Source: an uncultured bacterium (GTDB lineage Bacteria; Cyanobacteriota; Cyanobacteriia; Elainellales; Elainellaceae). Taken from it: a stretch of 64,000 nucleotides of DNA. The DNA lies in assembly GCA_964630955.1 (NCBI GenBank), contig CAZVXA010000003.1:13664-77663 (forward strand). Reading direction: 5' to 3'. A program made the position numbers and the translations under genes. Shown here one piece after another: positions 59,501 to 64,000 of the stretch. Position 1 is the stretch's first letter, and the number at the start of each line of letters is the position of its first letter. The notes under the pieces are model-generated. The model had not been told where the DNA came from. It saw only the letters and a list, made by a program, of their open reading frames with translations, and ran no database searches.

Positions 59501-61009
59501 GAGGTAGCGTTGTACCAGATCGATGAGAGCTTTTGGGGTTTTGGCAGATATAGCCAGGAGATGAAGCGGACGTTCTGGCTCGGCAAATGGTGATGGCGGT
59601 ACGACTACGGGGGGATTCTCTGTGGGGGCACTTTCTAAAATGACATGGGCATTAGTGCCACTCATCCCAAATGAGCTAATGCCTGCCAGACGGCGATCGC
59701 CACGCCAAGGAGTGAGTTGGGACGGGAGCGCGATCGGTAATTGCTGCCAGGGAATATGGGGACTCGGTTGCGCATAGCGGTGGGGCGGAATCTGTTGATG
59801 CTGAAGCGATAGCACCAACTTGATCAGTCCAGCAACGCCTGCCGCTGCTTCCAGGTGCCCGATGTTTGCCTTGACGGAGCCAATATAAAGCGGATTCAGC
59901 CGATTCTGGGCAAATACCTCAGCCAGTGCCAGGACTTCGATCGGATCGCCTAATACAGTTCCCGTCCCGTGTGCTTCAACATAGTCAATATCCTGGGGCG
60001 TAACCTGAGCCTGGGTCAGCGCCTGACGAATTACCGCTTGTTGCGCCAATCCATTAGGGGCAGTGAGTCCGTTGCTGGCACCATCATGGTTCACAGCGGA
60101 TCCCCGAATCACCGCCAGAATTGGGTCTTGATCGGCAATCGCGTCGGATAATCGCTTCAGCACCACAATGCCACATCCTTCACCCCGCCCGTAGCCATTC
60201 GCACTGGCATCGAAGGGTTTACAGTGTCCATCGGGAGACAGGGCTTTCAGCTTACAAAAGCCAATCATCGGTTCGGGTGCCAGGATGAGATTGACACCCC
60301 CCACGATCGCCCGATCCGATTCCCGCAGGCGCAAGCTTTGACAGGCTAGATGTAGGGCAACCAGCGATGAGGAACAGGTCGTATCTAACTGCAACGTCGG
60401 ACCCTGCAAGCCGAACACATAGGCAATTCGTCCGGCGGCAATGCTGCGCGTGTTGCCCAAACTGCTGTAGGCATCAATATACGTGGGGTCGCCGGAGGTT
60501 ATGCTGGTGCGCCCATAGTCATCGAAGCAAACACCCATGAAGACTCCGGTGCGGCTGCCTTTGAGTTGATCAATGGGTTGCCCTGCTCGTTCTAAGGCTT
60601 CATGGGTCACTTCCAGTAAGAGTCGCTGTTGGGGGTCGAGGGCGATCGCTTCTCGCGGTGCAATCCCGAATCGTTGGGCATCAAAGTCTGCCACCCGATC
60701 AATAAAACAACCGGAGCGAGTATACATTTTGCCTGGAGCATCGGGATTGGCATCGTAGTAGTCATCGATAATCCAGCGATCCGGGGGAATATCCTGCACC
60801 GCCGCTTGACCGGAAGCTAACAATTCCCAGTAATGCTCTGGCGTGGTTGCGCCGCCCGGAAACCGACACGCCATGCCAATCAGAGCGATGGATTCGGTTT
60901 GCTGATTCTGGAGTGTATCCAACTTAGACTGCATCCGCCGCAGTTCCAAAATCGCATCTTTTAACAGCGATTGATACTGAGAATTTGCACCGGGTTCAAT
61001 CGCTGTCAT
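53534..61009 (-). CDS. Type I PKS module: KS-AT(degenerate)-DH-cMT-ER-KR-ACP
   Basis: 2491-aa ORF, paralogous to 45999..53531. KS intact (LDTTCSSSLVALH; EAHGTGT; NIGHLEAAAG). The AT region (about 58640-59317) has GEGVG in place of GHSxG, ERGAY in place of GQGSQ, no HAFHS/YASH motif, and is about 60 aa shorter. DH (HRVFGQVILPASAY), cMT (LEIGAGTGGTT), ER (HVAAGGVGQAA), KR (TGGLGGLGLQ; SSATVLFGSPGQANHVAAN), ACP (GMDSLTS). Confidence 0.95.
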   Translation of the reverse strand: MTAIEPGANSQYQSLLKDAILELRRMQSKLDTLQNQQTESIALIGMACRFPGGATTPEHYWELLASGQAAVQDIPPDRWIIDDYYDANPDAPGKMYTRSGCFIDRVADFDAQRFGIAPREAIALDPQQRLLLEVTHEALERAGQPIDQLKGSRTGVFMGVCFDDYGRTSITSGDPTYIDAYSSLGNTRSIAAGRIAYVFGLQGPTLQLDTTCSSSLVALHLACQSLRLRESDRAIVGGVNLILAPEPMIGFCKLKALSPDGHCKPFDASANGYGRGEGCGIVVLKRLSDAIADQDPILAVIRGSAVNHDGASNGLTAPNGLAQQAVIRQALTQAQVTPQDIDYVEAHGTGTVLGDPIEVLALAEVFAQNRLNPLYIGSVKANIGHLEAAAGVAGLIKLVLSLQHQQIPPHRYAQPSPHIPWQQLPIALPSQLTPWRGDRRLAGISSFGMSGTNAHVILESAPTENPPVVVPPSPFAEPERPLHLLAISAKTPKALIDLVQRYLDWFIANPDRSLADASFSANTGRSHLEYRLSFVATTLTAAHTSLQAKLVAAIDHPPQKIHHSPKLAIRFLSERGAYSGMGTLLYQTQPQFRQAIDRCAAQIQPYLGRPLLTQLHTTKTSPGSALDVFALEYALYHLWQSWGIQPDIVLGEGVGVYVAACVAGVFSLEDALKLVIARDRLCNQPSDTGRSLSTVAQDITYHPPQLCLISPQIGEITGAEITRADTWSFPVPAFTSALPDLFSAPFSCTMLLDIGIQSTPAMSDSVSTRHLPGLTAEQSEWDTLLSNLGALYEQGVSVNWVAFDRNYQRRRIDIPTYPFQRQRFWRDRPQASIAIRSPIHPLLGSPITLARSSQIYFETYLSQTTPTFLKHHRVFGQVILPASAYIEMAIAAGKFLCNAPSITLTSVNIEQMWLVPESTKTSIQCIASPLQSKKAIVSYQFEWLSLTTENNTGSNFSPQHWQTHFTTQIQSQCPQVISSTDLFEYQSQCTEELSTKTYYQQCQVYGIDYGKDFQTIQTLHRDQQRQQAIAWVQLPSHLTPEIPDYSLHPTLLDGCLQAIGALLPNDSLTAYLPVGCQQLTLYQSAAEGLWSLAQWQERSALTVNLQLVNGTGELIAEMIGLQLKAVNALVRSPATSVSTLRLSPRWQNWLYRIEWQAHPAPIGVIKLPSPEAVCQHLTPIYEQLLTQPAVQAYADTLPQLELLSLHYISQAFQQLGCDFSALASFSITERMHQMAIAPSQQPLFHRLLDILAAAGQLEIRGDVCRVQQSWMPPELVNQPISSIEATLLERTGSRLAEILRGDCDPLQLLFPEGDVRLLTQLYQDSPGATVMNTLVQQAIAQMQDGLPVTQPLRILEIGAGTGGTTAHILPQLQADHTDYVFTDVSPLFLSNARQKFADYPFVRYECLDIERSPQDQGFTPHSFHIVVAANVLHATQDLRQTLIHVRQLLAPGGCLILLEGTLPLRWVDLIFGLTEGWWRFQDHELRPHHPLIAVEQWQRLLQTTGFKTTIALQPDTYPNQETAFQSILIANTPANISNTNSINPFKREIWLILQEEPVNQLSLGLTLSSHLEKLQHSAQLISTSELTDFVSILTQTSFDRIIDLRSLTNSRHLESDTLPNRVQHQCQELLKLIQAIIQTSSSPSPQLAIVTQGAITAGTVNRSGLIQSPLCGIEKVLRLEHPELNSCCLDLDPNQPLEAQTETLLAALLDETIEEHMAWRQGQWQVARLVQDESFQDERDAVNDRLTLTQRGNLDQLHFAAAERRSPAADEVEIQVQATGLNFRDVLNALDLYPGEAGDLGCECVGKVVRLGEQVNHLTLGQSVMALTTGSFSRYVTVNGAMVVPCPTHLAPADVATIPVAFLTANYALRHLAQLQPGDRVLIHVAAGGVGQAAIQIAQQIGAEIFATASPDKQALVRSLGVDHVFNSRTLEFAEQILTLTNGAGVDVVLNSLSGDFIPKSCSILKSRGCFLEIGKLDIWSTEQFAQVRPQARYCVIDVVELCQQQPEFVQSQLQAIATEFQAQNLQPLPHQTYDRDQIRSAFRTMQQGKHTGKLVLTQNAVQAVSELILHPDRTYLITGGLGGLGLQVAEWLIQQGARHLVLVGRNPDPAVVHQLQAADRTIQAIAADVSQRSALVPILETIRQSGYPLAGVVHAAGVLADATLRHLDATQIAAVMLPKVGGAWHLHELTQNQPLDFFVLFSSATVLFGSPGQANHVAANTFLDALAHYRQAQGLPALSINWGTWSQVGAAAARQADARIQQLGIGAIAPEVGRQTLSPLIGSQLVQVGVIPIDWAHFLQHDAASPLFAAFRQQHATVPSGRMPSTLSTSATSDILQVLTTAPDRTAVLTEFVRSQIAQILGFQPSDIDPQKGFFDLGMDSLTSVELKSRLQTALNCTLPTTVAFDYPTLERLIPYLLTQVEENLPENTADTASEPIPAQPPDVRQTFSRSTEISSSLPSDFTAVDLTRLSDADIATLLAQELMHHELEF

Positions 61010-64000: not shown

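What the first reader, a model, noticed from the sequence alone, without database searches (positions are those of the whole stretch)
61006..64000. FAAL, acyl-CoA dehydrogenase-like domain and ACP fused in one loading polypeptide
Seen in sequence: the C-terminal half of a FAAL (LVSCG, KTSSGKIQR) is followed by a complete ACAD fold (LTEAEAGSNP, WHLNGTKIWSG, RIFEGPTE with the Glu of the YEG-type catalytic-base position retained) and then an ACP (GIDS).

Established knowledge: in mycobactin lipidation the same three activities are separate proteins. FadD33 is the FAAL, MbtL the ACP, and FadE14 the ACAD that acts on acyl-ACP to make the 2-enoyl chain.

Inference: a single-chain version feeding a PKS KS would deliver an alpha,beta-unsaturated fatty acyl starter. 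I do not recall this tri-domain as a described cyanobacterial loader.
Basis: partly seen in the sequence, partly recalled or inferred. Interest (0 to 1): 0.7.

Follow-up and report, generated by a model that had tools for sequence, protein, structure and literature searches.

The report
Common FAAL–ACAD–ACP lipid starter loader
The fused fatty-acid-activating, dehydrogenating and carrier protein is really there and probably hands an unsaturated fatty acyl starter to a polyketide/peptide assembly line, but this design is widespread in cyanobacteria and was already described in 2022, so it is an ordinary new member of a known kind.

Summary
On the minus strand, 61006..>64000, an ORF cut by the window end encodes the last 220 residues of a FAAL, a complete three-part ACAD, a helical extension, and an ACP. 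The full protein (P0001) is 1342 aa. Its stop overlaps (ATGA) the start of a KS-first PKS.

The ACAD looks catalytically competent. The Glu of "RIFEGPTE" aligns with the catalytic base of VLCAD and is invariant in 114/114 family members. The FAD-site motifs are nearly invariant, and the predicted fold matches dimeric VLCAD/ACAD9, including their C-terminal extension.

The novelty claim fails. At least 150 clusters at 50% identity carry this ACAD-extension-ACP unit. Most place it behind a ~600-residue N-terminal region, and all 120 best hits of the 90% search have the full architecture. Members span many cyanobacterial genera, two Betaproteobacteria and a myxobacterial MAG. The same FAAL-ACAD-ACP loader is published as NvlI (nostovalerolactone, Nostoc punctiforme). 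Stand-alone cyanobacterial acyl-ACP dehydrogenases (NocC/NocI) are proven in vitro, and a FAAL-ACAD fusion is reported from enduracidin.

Best reading: FAAL loads a fatty acid on the ACP, the ACAD desaturates it in cis, and the KS takes the enoyl starter. The fused domain's activity, regiochemistry and electron acceptor remain untested. Interest is low.

The parts
63340..64000 (-). C-terminal ~220 residues of the FAAL domain (P0001 residues 346-565). The first 345 residues of the protein lie beyond the window end.
   Evidence: Pfam AMP-binding end and AMP-dom_DIP2-like. Full-length P0001 residues 7-564 align end to end with solved FAAL structures: 7r7g E 5e-186, Legionella FAAL 3kxw 8e-138, then FadD23, FadD32, FadD28. 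The top NCBIfam single-enzyme models are fatty-acid--AMP ligases.
63094..63339 (-). Low-complexity FAAL-to-ACAD linker (~80 residues).
   Evidence: No Pfam match. Sequence read directly.
61984..63093 (-). Acyl-CoA dehydrogenase core (N, middle and C-terminal sub-domains).
   Evidence: Pfam Acyl-CoA_dh_N/M/1. Best solved relatives are VLCAD and ACAD9, E 1e-43 to 5e-41. AF2 model pLDDT is mostly >90 here.
62029..62031 (-). Codon of the predicted catalytic base Glu (window-protein residue 657 = P0001 Glu1002, in RIFEGPTE).
   Evidence: Aligns with the Glu of VLCAD 'RIFEG'. Invariant in 114/114 full-length family members. Coordinates checked.
61633..61983 (-). Conserved helical extension after the ACAD core, equivalent to the C-terminal domain of VLCAD/ACAD9.
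   Evidence: High alignment occupancy across the family. Modelled as helices with high confidence. Foldseek top hits are VLCAD/ACAD9 over 526-576 aligned columns, against ~375 for four-subunit-type ACADs.
61420..61572 (-). Variable, predicted-disordered ACAD-to-ACP linker. It contains an in-frame palindromic DNA element at 61435-61518.
   Evidence: pLDDT <50. Zero occupancy of the inserted columns in all other family members. Inverted repeats I1, I2 and I4.
61147..61419 (-). Acyl carrier protein domain. The phosphopantetheine Ser codon is at 61297-61299 (GIDS).
   Evidence: Pfam PP-binding E 4e-12. Y-G-x-D-S is invariant in 114/114. Four-helix model with pLDDT ~90. Coordinates checked.
61009..61071 (-). 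C-terminal helix, a probable docking element toward the next PKS, followed by the stop codon (61006-61008) that overlaps the PKS start.
   Evidence: Helix 693-712 of the model. ATGA overlap of the stop with the PKS1 ATG at 61009-61007. The docking role is inferred.
53534..61009 (-). First PKS module, which receives the starter: KS(Cys-His-His intact)-AT relic-DH-cMT-ER-KR-ACP.
   Evidence: Pfam. KS motif DTTCSSS is present and the AT motif GHSxG is replaced by GEGVG.

Best explanation
This is a lipo-initiation (loading) protein of a hybrid PKS/NRPS cluster in a cyanobacterium. The proposed steps are:
1. The FAAL domain adenylates a free fatty acid and transfers it to the phosphopantetheine arm of the protein's own C-terminal ACP.
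2. The embedded VLCAD-type flavoenzyme domain abstracts the alpha-proton with Glu1002 (P0001 numbering) and passes a hydride to FAD. This converts acyl-S-ACP to 2-enoyl-S-ACP in cis.
3. The enoyl starter passes, via a C-terminal docking helix, to the KS of the translationally coupled first PKS module and is extended.

Shown here: the domain order and integrity, conservation of the catalytic and cofactor-site residues, the VLCAD-like fold with its extra C-terminal domain, the intact ACP serine, and a KS-first (or C-first) partner downstream in relatives.

Inferred: that FAD is bound, that the substrate is the ACP-tethered acyl chain, that the product is the 2-enoyl species, the fatty-acid chain length, and how the flavin is re-oxidised. 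O2 or an unknown acceptor are possible; no partner is encoded nearby.
For: - Domain architecture.
- FAAL identity.
- ACAD competence: the catalytic Glu aligns with that of VLCAD. Glu, the TE..AGS motif, KIWSGSAAW, GGRGYIE and the Arg of RRxxxTG are invariant or nearly so in 114 full-length relatives.
- Fold: AF2 model with mean pLDDT 83.6. Foldseek top hits are VLCAD/ACAD9, including the C-terminal domain.
- ACP Ser is invariant.
- Downstream partner: a KS-first PKS follows in the window and in L001, L002, L003, L004 and L005, and a KS-AT protein follows in Trinickia L011. Other family members are fused directly to NRPS C-A-T modules.
- Literature: NvlI has FAAL and ACAD domains, with an ACP listed in the scheme's legend, and the same proposed chemistry (PMC9324945). 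Cyanobacterial NocC/NocI desaturate C6-C12 acyl-ACP in vitro (PMC9486936). ACAD genes between the FAAL and ACP genes correlate with unsaturated lipid tails in friulimicin, laspartomycin, taromycin and malacidin, and enduracidin Orf45 is a FAAL-ACAD fusion (PMC9113097).
- The mycobactin FadD33/MbtL/FadE14 precedent is established knowledge recalled from memory, not checked here.
Against: - I found no direct assay of any fused FAAL-ACAD-ACP protein, so the activity is by analogy.
- The residue after the flavin-stacking Trp that is Ser/Thr in VLCAD/MCAD (WIS/WIT) is Gly in this family (W-S-G-S). The flavin environment therefore differs somewhat.
- The window protein deviates from the family consensus LTEPGAGSNP (it has LTEAEAGSNP; A in 14/114 and E in 5/114).
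- The product of this cluster is unknown, so no double bond can be matched to the domain.
- The first PKS module has a dead AT, so how the starter is first extended is itself unclear.
Confidence: 0.7

Rival explanations
1. The domain is an active acyl-ACP dehydrogenase, but the double bond delivered to the assembly line is not alpha,beta. It would end up beta,gamma (delta-3), by isomerisation after or during dehydrogenation, or at another position.
For: The nocuolin paper links NocC to a beta,gamma-unsaturation in chlorosphaerolactylates (PMC9486936). The review of daptomycin-type lipopeptides assigns different ACADs to delta-2 and delta-4 double bonds (PMC9113097). That friulimicin's LipB-dependent double bond is cis-delta-3 is recalled from memory. 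The Ser/Thr-to-Gly change next to the flavin-stacking Trp shows the active site is not a textbook one.
Against: The catalytic base sits at the canonical position for alpha-proton abstraction. Nothing in the sequence indicates an isomerase function. The simplest chemistry of the fold gives the 2-enoyl thioester.
Confidence: 0.13
2. The ACAD domain is catalytically silent in this protein. It serves mainly as a dimerisation or scaffold element of the loader, using the dimer-forming VLCAD-type architecture.
For: The fold is of the VLCAD/ACAD9 type, which forms dimers (recalled from memory). That ACAD9 has a non-catalytic assembly role is established knowledge. The window copy departs from the family consensus in the TEPGAGS motif.
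Against: A scaffold role alone does not explain an invariant catalytic Glu and near-invariant cofactor-site motifs in 114 sequences at 45-70% identity.
Confidence: 0.07
3. The flavoenzyme domain acts on something other than the starter on its own ACP, for example a later chain intermediate, an acyl-CoA, or an aminoacyl/peptidyl carrier-bound substrate as prolyl-carrier-protein dehydrogenases do.
For: NCBIfam and PDB searches give weaker hits to L-prolyl-PCP dehydrogenases (RedW/PigA type). The cluster contains many NRPS modules.
Against: The best relatives are long-chain fatty-acyl enzymes (VLCAD/ACAD9), not prolyl-PCP dehydrogenases. The constant FAAL-ACAD-ACP order across very different downstream assembly lines ties the domain to the starter.
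Confidence: 0.05

Closest known systems
NvlI, loader of the nostovalerolactone (nvl/pks1) cluster of Nostoc punctiforme (Krumbholz et al. 2022, PMC9324945)
   Same: In the published model the FAAL domain of NvlI activates a fatty acid and an adjacent ACAD domain oxidises it. The chain is then extended by type I PKS modules, and ACP is among the domains named in the scheme's legend.
   Different: The downstream chemistry differs: tetronate-like there, a hybrid PKS/NRPS with C-methylating fully reducing modules and an Ox-domain NRPS here. Sequence relatedness to NvlI could not be measured because its sequence was not retrievable with these tools. I found no assay of NvlI's ACAD in the text I read.
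NocC / NocI acyl-ACP dehydrogenases with FAAL ClyA/NocH and ACP ClyB (Nodularia sp. LEGE 06071; PMC9486936)
   Same: These are cyanobacterial ACAD-family enzymes that desaturate FAAL-type acyl-ACP thioesters (C6-C12) in vitro.
   Different: They are separate proteins acting in trans, whereas here the three activities are in one chain. Relatedness to this domain was not tested.
Mycobactin lipidation set FadD33(MbtM)/MbtL/FadE14(MbtN)
   Same: The same three activities and the same proposed order: FAAL loads the ACP and the ACAD makes 2-enoyl-ACP (established knowledge, recalled from memory). The MbtM model hits the FAAL part at E 5e-68.
   Different: They are three separate proteins feeding an acyltransferase rather than a KS. 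The FAAL here is much closer to the 7r7g chain deposited as 'Polyketide synthase' than to MbtM.
Actinomycete lipopeptide initiation cassettes (friulimicin LipA/B/D, laspartomycin, taromycin Tar5/6, malacidin MlcH/I; enduracidin Orf45 FAAL-ACAD fusion; PMC9113097)
   Same: FAAL, ACAD(s) and ACP cooperate to give unsaturated lipid starters. Orf45 already fuses FAAL and ACAD.
   Different: The ACP is free-standing and the acceptor is an NRPS starter C domain. [quoted passage not shown]
VLCAD / ACAD9 (PDB 3b96, 7s7g, 8ca1, 8phe)
   Same: Closest solved fold: the catalytic Glu in RIFEG and an extra C-terminal helical domain.
   Different: They act on acyl-CoA in mitochondrial beta-oxidation with ETF as acceptor. 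Sequence identity is only ~22% over the structural alignment. Here the domain is embedded in a biosynthetic loader.

Membership tests
Fatty acyl-AMP ligase (FAAL) | Adenylate-forming fold with sequence closest to proven FAALs rather than acyl-CoA ligases | tested here: met
   P0001 residues 7-564 align end to end with 7r7g (E 5e-186), Legionella FAAL 3kxw, FadD23, FadD32, FadD28 and E. coli FAAL 3pbk. Acyl-CoA ligases score far lower. The best NCBIfam single-enzyme models are fatty-acid--AMP ligases.
Fatty acyl-AMP ligase (FAAL) | FAAL-specific insertion that blocks CoA use; transfer to holo-ACP and not CoA | not tested
   The insertion was not mapped residue by residue. The near-gapless alignment to solved FAALs suggests it is present. 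CoA rejection needs an assay.
Acyl-CoA dehydrogenase superfamily | Three sub-domains (alpha N, beta middle, alpha C) | tested here: met
   Pfam N/M/C hits all exceed their gathering scores. AF2 secondary structure is helix-strand-helix. Foldseek TM to ACADs is ~0.9, normalised to the target.
Acyl-CoA dehydrogenase superfamily | Catalytic base Glu at the (Y/F)EG position | tested here: met
   RIFEGPTE aligns with VLCAD RIFEGTND. The Glu is invariant in 114/114.
Acyl-CoA dehydrogenase superfamily | FAD-site motifs (TEPxxGS loop, Trp of W-I-S/T, Arg before xxFG, G after the catalytic Glu) | tested here: met
   T762, E763, G767, W793, R906 and G1003 are invariant or >97% conserved and align with the VLCAD motifs. 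One deviation: Ser/Thr after the Trp is Gly across the family. Actual FAD binding is not testable here.
VLCAD/ACAD9 dimeric subclass | Extra C-terminal helical domain after the ACAD core | tested here: met
   The conserved ~120-residue helical extension is covered by Foldseek alignments of 526-576 columns to VLCAD/ACAD9. Dimeric state is not testable.
Acyl-ACP dehydrogenase (functional class: FadE14/MbtN, NocC/NocI) | Oxidises carrier-protein-bound rather than CoA-bound acyl chains | not testable with these tools
   Only indirect support: covalent fusion between a FAAL (which makes no CoA ester) and an ACP.
Carrier protein (PP-binding) | Four-helix bundle with a conserved Ser in the (D)S motif | tested here: met
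   Pfam PP-binding E 4e-12. YGxDS is invariant. Confident helical model.
NvlI-type FAAL-ACAD-ACP loading protein | The three domains in this order in one polypeptide, followed by the first elongation enzyme of an assembly line | tested here: met
   with context.
NvlI-type FAAL-ACAD-ACP loading protein | Sequence homology to NvlI itself | not tested
   The NvlI sequence could not be fetched. The paper's supplements are not held.

The most novel reading that the evidence does not exclude
The fused VLCAD-type domain might not be a plain alpha,beta-dehydrogenase. It could be a self-sufficient, O2-using acyl-ACP oxidase or desaturase with its own regiochemistry. In that case this large, biochemically uncharacterised family would define a distinct cis-acting enzyme class. 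In this sub-clade it would work together with an AT-less first module.
Probability: 0.12. Interest if true: 0.45.

Novelty: new member of a known kind. Interest (0 to 1): 0.2.

Why it matters
There is no conceptual novelty here, and the practical value is modest. The domain predicts an unsaturated, fatty-acid-derived tail on the unknown lipopeptide/polyketide of this cluster. The family is large and biochemically untouched in its fused form. One clean in vitro study covering FAD content, the -2 Da shift on the ACP, double-bond position and electron acceptor would annotate the whole family at once, which comprises at least 150 protein clusters at 50% identity. It would also provide a portable cassette for putting unsaturated lipid starters on PKS or NRPS lines.

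Tried and rejected
- **Literature on a characterised fused loader.** Eight full-text searches found only NvlI as a described cyanobacterial tri-domain, and Orf45 as a FAAL-ACAD fusion. No enzymology of a fused form turned up. Many 'ACAD' hits were just 'Proc Natl Acad Sci'.
- **Reviews.** The FAAL reviews and the FAALPred paper do not mention the ACAD fusion in the text I could search.
- **Anabaena PCC 7120.** I guessed from memory that the homologue is alr2678-alr2680. The only paper found lists alr2679 and alr2680 as FurA-regulated PKS genes, and nothing links them to a product. The gene assignment stays unverified.
- **NvlI annotation.** The supplementary tables of the nostovalerolactone paper are not held.
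- **Genome census.** It gives examples, not counts.
- **Organism name.** The look-up for P0001 returned no name.
- **Chain-length prediction.** I did not attempt it for the FAAL or ACAD pocket, because I could not place the specificity residues reliably from memory.
- **Idea dropped.** The adjacent 2OG oxygenase and enoyl-ACP could mimic isonitrile-lipopeptide chemistry. I dropped this because the oxygenase is of the prolyl-hydroxylase-like Pfam type and is absent from most relatives' contexts.
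Full report
**1. What is in the sequence**

The feature lies on the minus strand. An ORF enters the window at its right end and stops at 61006-61008.

Pfam finds, in order:
- the end of an AMP-binding domain and a FAAL-type C-terminal sub-domain (residues 12-216)
- Acyl-CoA_dh_N, _M and _1 (303-672; E 1e-16, 8e-18 and 1e-30)
- PP-binding (878-939; E 4e-12)

An identical full-length protein is in public data (P0001, 1342 aa). 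The window copy begins at its residue 346. The stop codon overlaps the ATG of the next gene (ATGA). That gene is a 2491-aa PKS starting with an intact KS. The only corrections are the strand and the fact that about 40% rather than half of the FAAL is in the window.

**2. Quality of each domain**

*FAAL.* Residues 7-564 of P0001 align almost without gaps to a solved 572-residue chain deposited as 'Polyketide synthase' (7r7g, E 5e-186). They also align to the Legionella, mycobacterial (FadD23/32/28) and E. coli FAAL structures. Acyl-CoA ligases score far lower. NCBIfam agrees.

*ACAD.* The nearest solved sequences are VLCAD and ACAD9 (E 1e-43 to 5e-41). 'LRDARVLRIFEGPTETL' is aligned to VLCAD 'LRDLRIFRIFEGTNDIL', so the catalytic-base Glu is in place.

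In a MAFFT alignment of 114 full-length relatives:
- This Glu is invariant, as are the flanking R-x-x-R-I-F-E-G-P-T-E residues.
- T and E of the TE..AGS loop, the K-I-W-S-G-S-A-A-W segment, GGRGYIE and the Arg of RRxxxTG are invariant or nearly so.
- One family-wide departure from textbook ACADs exists: W-S-G-S replaces W-I-S/T.
- The window protein has LTEAEAGSNP where the family consensus is LTEPGAGSNP.

*Fold.* An AlphaFold2 model of ACAD-to-end was built on 69 sequences (mean pLDDT 83.6, pTM 0.73). It shows the ACAD core, a further confident helical bundle, a disordered linker, a four-helix ACP and a terminal helix. Foldseek against the PDB ranks VLCAD and ACAD9 first, with 526-576 aligned columns, so the helical extension is included. 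ACADs such as SCAD and MmgC, which lack the extension, align over only ~375 columns. The extension is well conserved across the family.

I infer that this is the dimer-forming kind of ACAD, which suits a dimeric PKS. Oligomeric state was not tested.

*ACP.* YGxDS is invariant.

**3. How common is it?**

- All 120 best hits of the 90%-identity protein search have the same AMP-binding + ACAD(N,M,1) + PP-binding annotation. They are mostly 1200-1400 aa, with a few shorter, apparently truncated entries.
- Named sources include Nostoc, Trichormus, Anabaena, Nodularia, Calothrix, Crocosphaera (Cyanothece ATCC 51142), Chroococcus, Gloeocapsa, Aphanothece, Leptolyngbya, Plectonema, Lyngbya, Limnoraphis, Rhizonema and Acaryochloris.
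- Against 1.84 billion 50%-identity representatives, the ACAD-extension-ACP piece gives 838 proteins at E <= 1e-30. The 150 best all score E < 1e-122. Most carry the match from about residue 580-660 of a 1200-1400 aa protein, as expected behind a FAAL.
- The genome scan was incomplete but added complete tri-domain proteins outside cyanobacteria. These are Noviherbaspirillum massiliense (1310 aa), Trinickia fusca (1316 aa, followed by a KS-AT protein) and a Polyangiaceae MAG (1255 aa; the ACAD middle domain fell below the Pfam cut-off).
- Longer family members have the cassette fused to NRPS domains. P0158 and P0179 continue into C-A-T modules, and P0172 has C domains.

In every cyanobacterial context read, the next gene is a KS-first PKS. 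These contexts are the window/L001, Anabaena L002, Crocosphaera L003, Nostoc L004 and the metagenomic L005. The cassette is thus a general lipo-initiation module.

**4. Is it already described?**

Yes. Krumbholz et al. [quoted passage not shown] ACP is among the domains named in the scheme's legend.

Related precedents:
- Stand-alone cyanobacterial acyl-ACP dehydrogenases NocC and NocI desaturate C6-C12 acyl-ClyB in vitro (PMC9486936).
- In actinomycete lipopeptide clusters, ACAD genes sit between the FAAL and ACP genes whenever the lipid is unsaturated.
- Enduracidin Orf45 is a FAAL-ACAD fusion. [quoted passage not shown]

I found no enzymology of any fused tri-domain protein.

**5. Most likely mechanism**

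The FAAL adenylates a free fatty acid and loads the cis ACP. The VLCAD-type domain oxidises acyl-S-ACP to enoyl-S-ACP with Glu1002 as base and FAD as hydride acceptor. The terminal helix then docks onto the coiled-coil N-terminus of the next PKS, whose KS takes the starter.

Shown: architecture, residue conservation, fold, and the downstream partner. Inferred: FAD binding, the ACP-bound substrate, 2-enoyl regiochemistry, chain length and the flavin re-oxidation route. Confidence is about 0.7.

Rivals:
- An active enzyme with a shifted double bond (0.13). NocC is linked to a beta,gamma-unsaturation.
- A silent scaffold domain (0.07). The invariant catalytic residues argue against this.
- Action on another carrier-bound substrate (0.05). 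The VLCAD-like affinity and the constant FAAL-ACAD-ACP order argue against this.

**6. Cluster context**

The window holds a hybrid PKS/NRPS line on the minus strand, in this order:
- the loader
- PKS1: KS-AT*-DH-cMT-ER-KR-ACP
- PKS2: the same with an intact AT
- PKS3: KS-AT-KR-ACP
- three small genes, two on the plus strand (a luciferase-like monooxygenase and a DUF3102 protein) and one on the minus strand with no Pfam match
- three NRPS proteins
- PKS4: KS-AT-KR-ACP
- an NRPS with a nitroreductase-type Ox domain
- a further NRPS running towards the left end

Just outside the window, a small 2OG-Fe(II) oxygenase gene precedes the loader. It is also present in the closest orthologous locus, L005. 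The product is unknown.

**7. Verdict**

The feature is real, intact and probably functional, but it is an ordinary member of a large and already described kind. Novelty: new member of a known kind. Interest: about 0.2. The residual value is that the fused domain has never been assayed.

Noticed in passing
window 61435-61518 (minus-strand gene; P0001 residues ~1173-1200): An ~85-nt double-hairpin palindromic element (CCCCTTCTCC..GGAGAAGGGG and CCCCTCGCCC..GGGAGAGGGG) sits in frame in the disordered ACAD-to-ACP linker and encodes SPKIGEGEFLNLFPSPMLGEGITRGEGD. These columns are empty in all 113 other family members, including the 64-65% identical ones. It looks like a short dispersed or MITE-like cyanobacterial repeat tolerated inside an interdomain linker. 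There is no second copy in the window.
   Followed up: partly
window ~58610-59332 (minus strand; PKS1 residues ~560-800; GEGVG at 59045-59059): The AT domain of the first extension module is a relic. GQGSQ is replaced by ERGAY, the active-site GHSxG by GEGVG, and the HAFH motif and the small sub-domain are missing. KS (Cys-His-His), the DH HxxxGxxxxP motif, the cMT and KR glycine-rich nucleotide-binding motifs and the ACP look intact by motif or Pfam, and the ER is detected by Pfam only. The closest ortholog (L005) has the same GEGVG, but the Anabaena homologue (L002) has a normal GHSLG/HAFH. Module 1 must therefore be malonylated in trans, or behave non-canonically.
   Followed up: partly
L001 95-694 (just beyond the right end of the window); L005 9124-10044: A small 2OG-Fe(II) oxygenase gene (Pfam 2OG-FeII_Oxy_3/4, prolyl-hydroxylase-like) lies directly upstream of the loader in this genome and in the closest orthologous locus. 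It is absent from the Anabaena, Crocosphaera and Nostoc contexts. Its substrate is unknown.
   Followed up: no
window 37050-41186: Three small genes interrupt the co-directional assembly line between PKS3 and the first NRPS. Two are on the opposite strand: a luciferase-like monooxygenase (40143-41186, +) and a DUF3102 protein (38564-39817, +). The third (37050-37796, -) has no Pfam match.
   Followed up: no
whole window: There are 133 copies of the HIP1 octamer GCGATCGC against ~1.3 expected, at 53.5% G+C. This is a strong cyanobacterial signature. The organism could not be named.
   Followed up: yes
L009 2568-7977 (Noviherbaspirillum massiliense); P0158, P0172, P0179: Variants of the cassette exist. 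In Noviherbaspirillum the tri-domain gene follows a class I/II aminotransferase gene (possibly an alpha-oxoamine synthase) and no PKS follows it. Other family members are fused in one chain to NRPS domains, one of them with an embedded luciferase-like monooxygenase.
   Followed up: partly
L002 (Anabaena sp. FACHB-709) and L005: A conserved neighbourhood lies next to the loader in two distant relatives: a rotamase and an ABC transporter with cNMP-binding and C39 peptidase domains. The Anabaena locus also has a HlyD-type adaptor. This may be an export system for the products.
   Followed up: no
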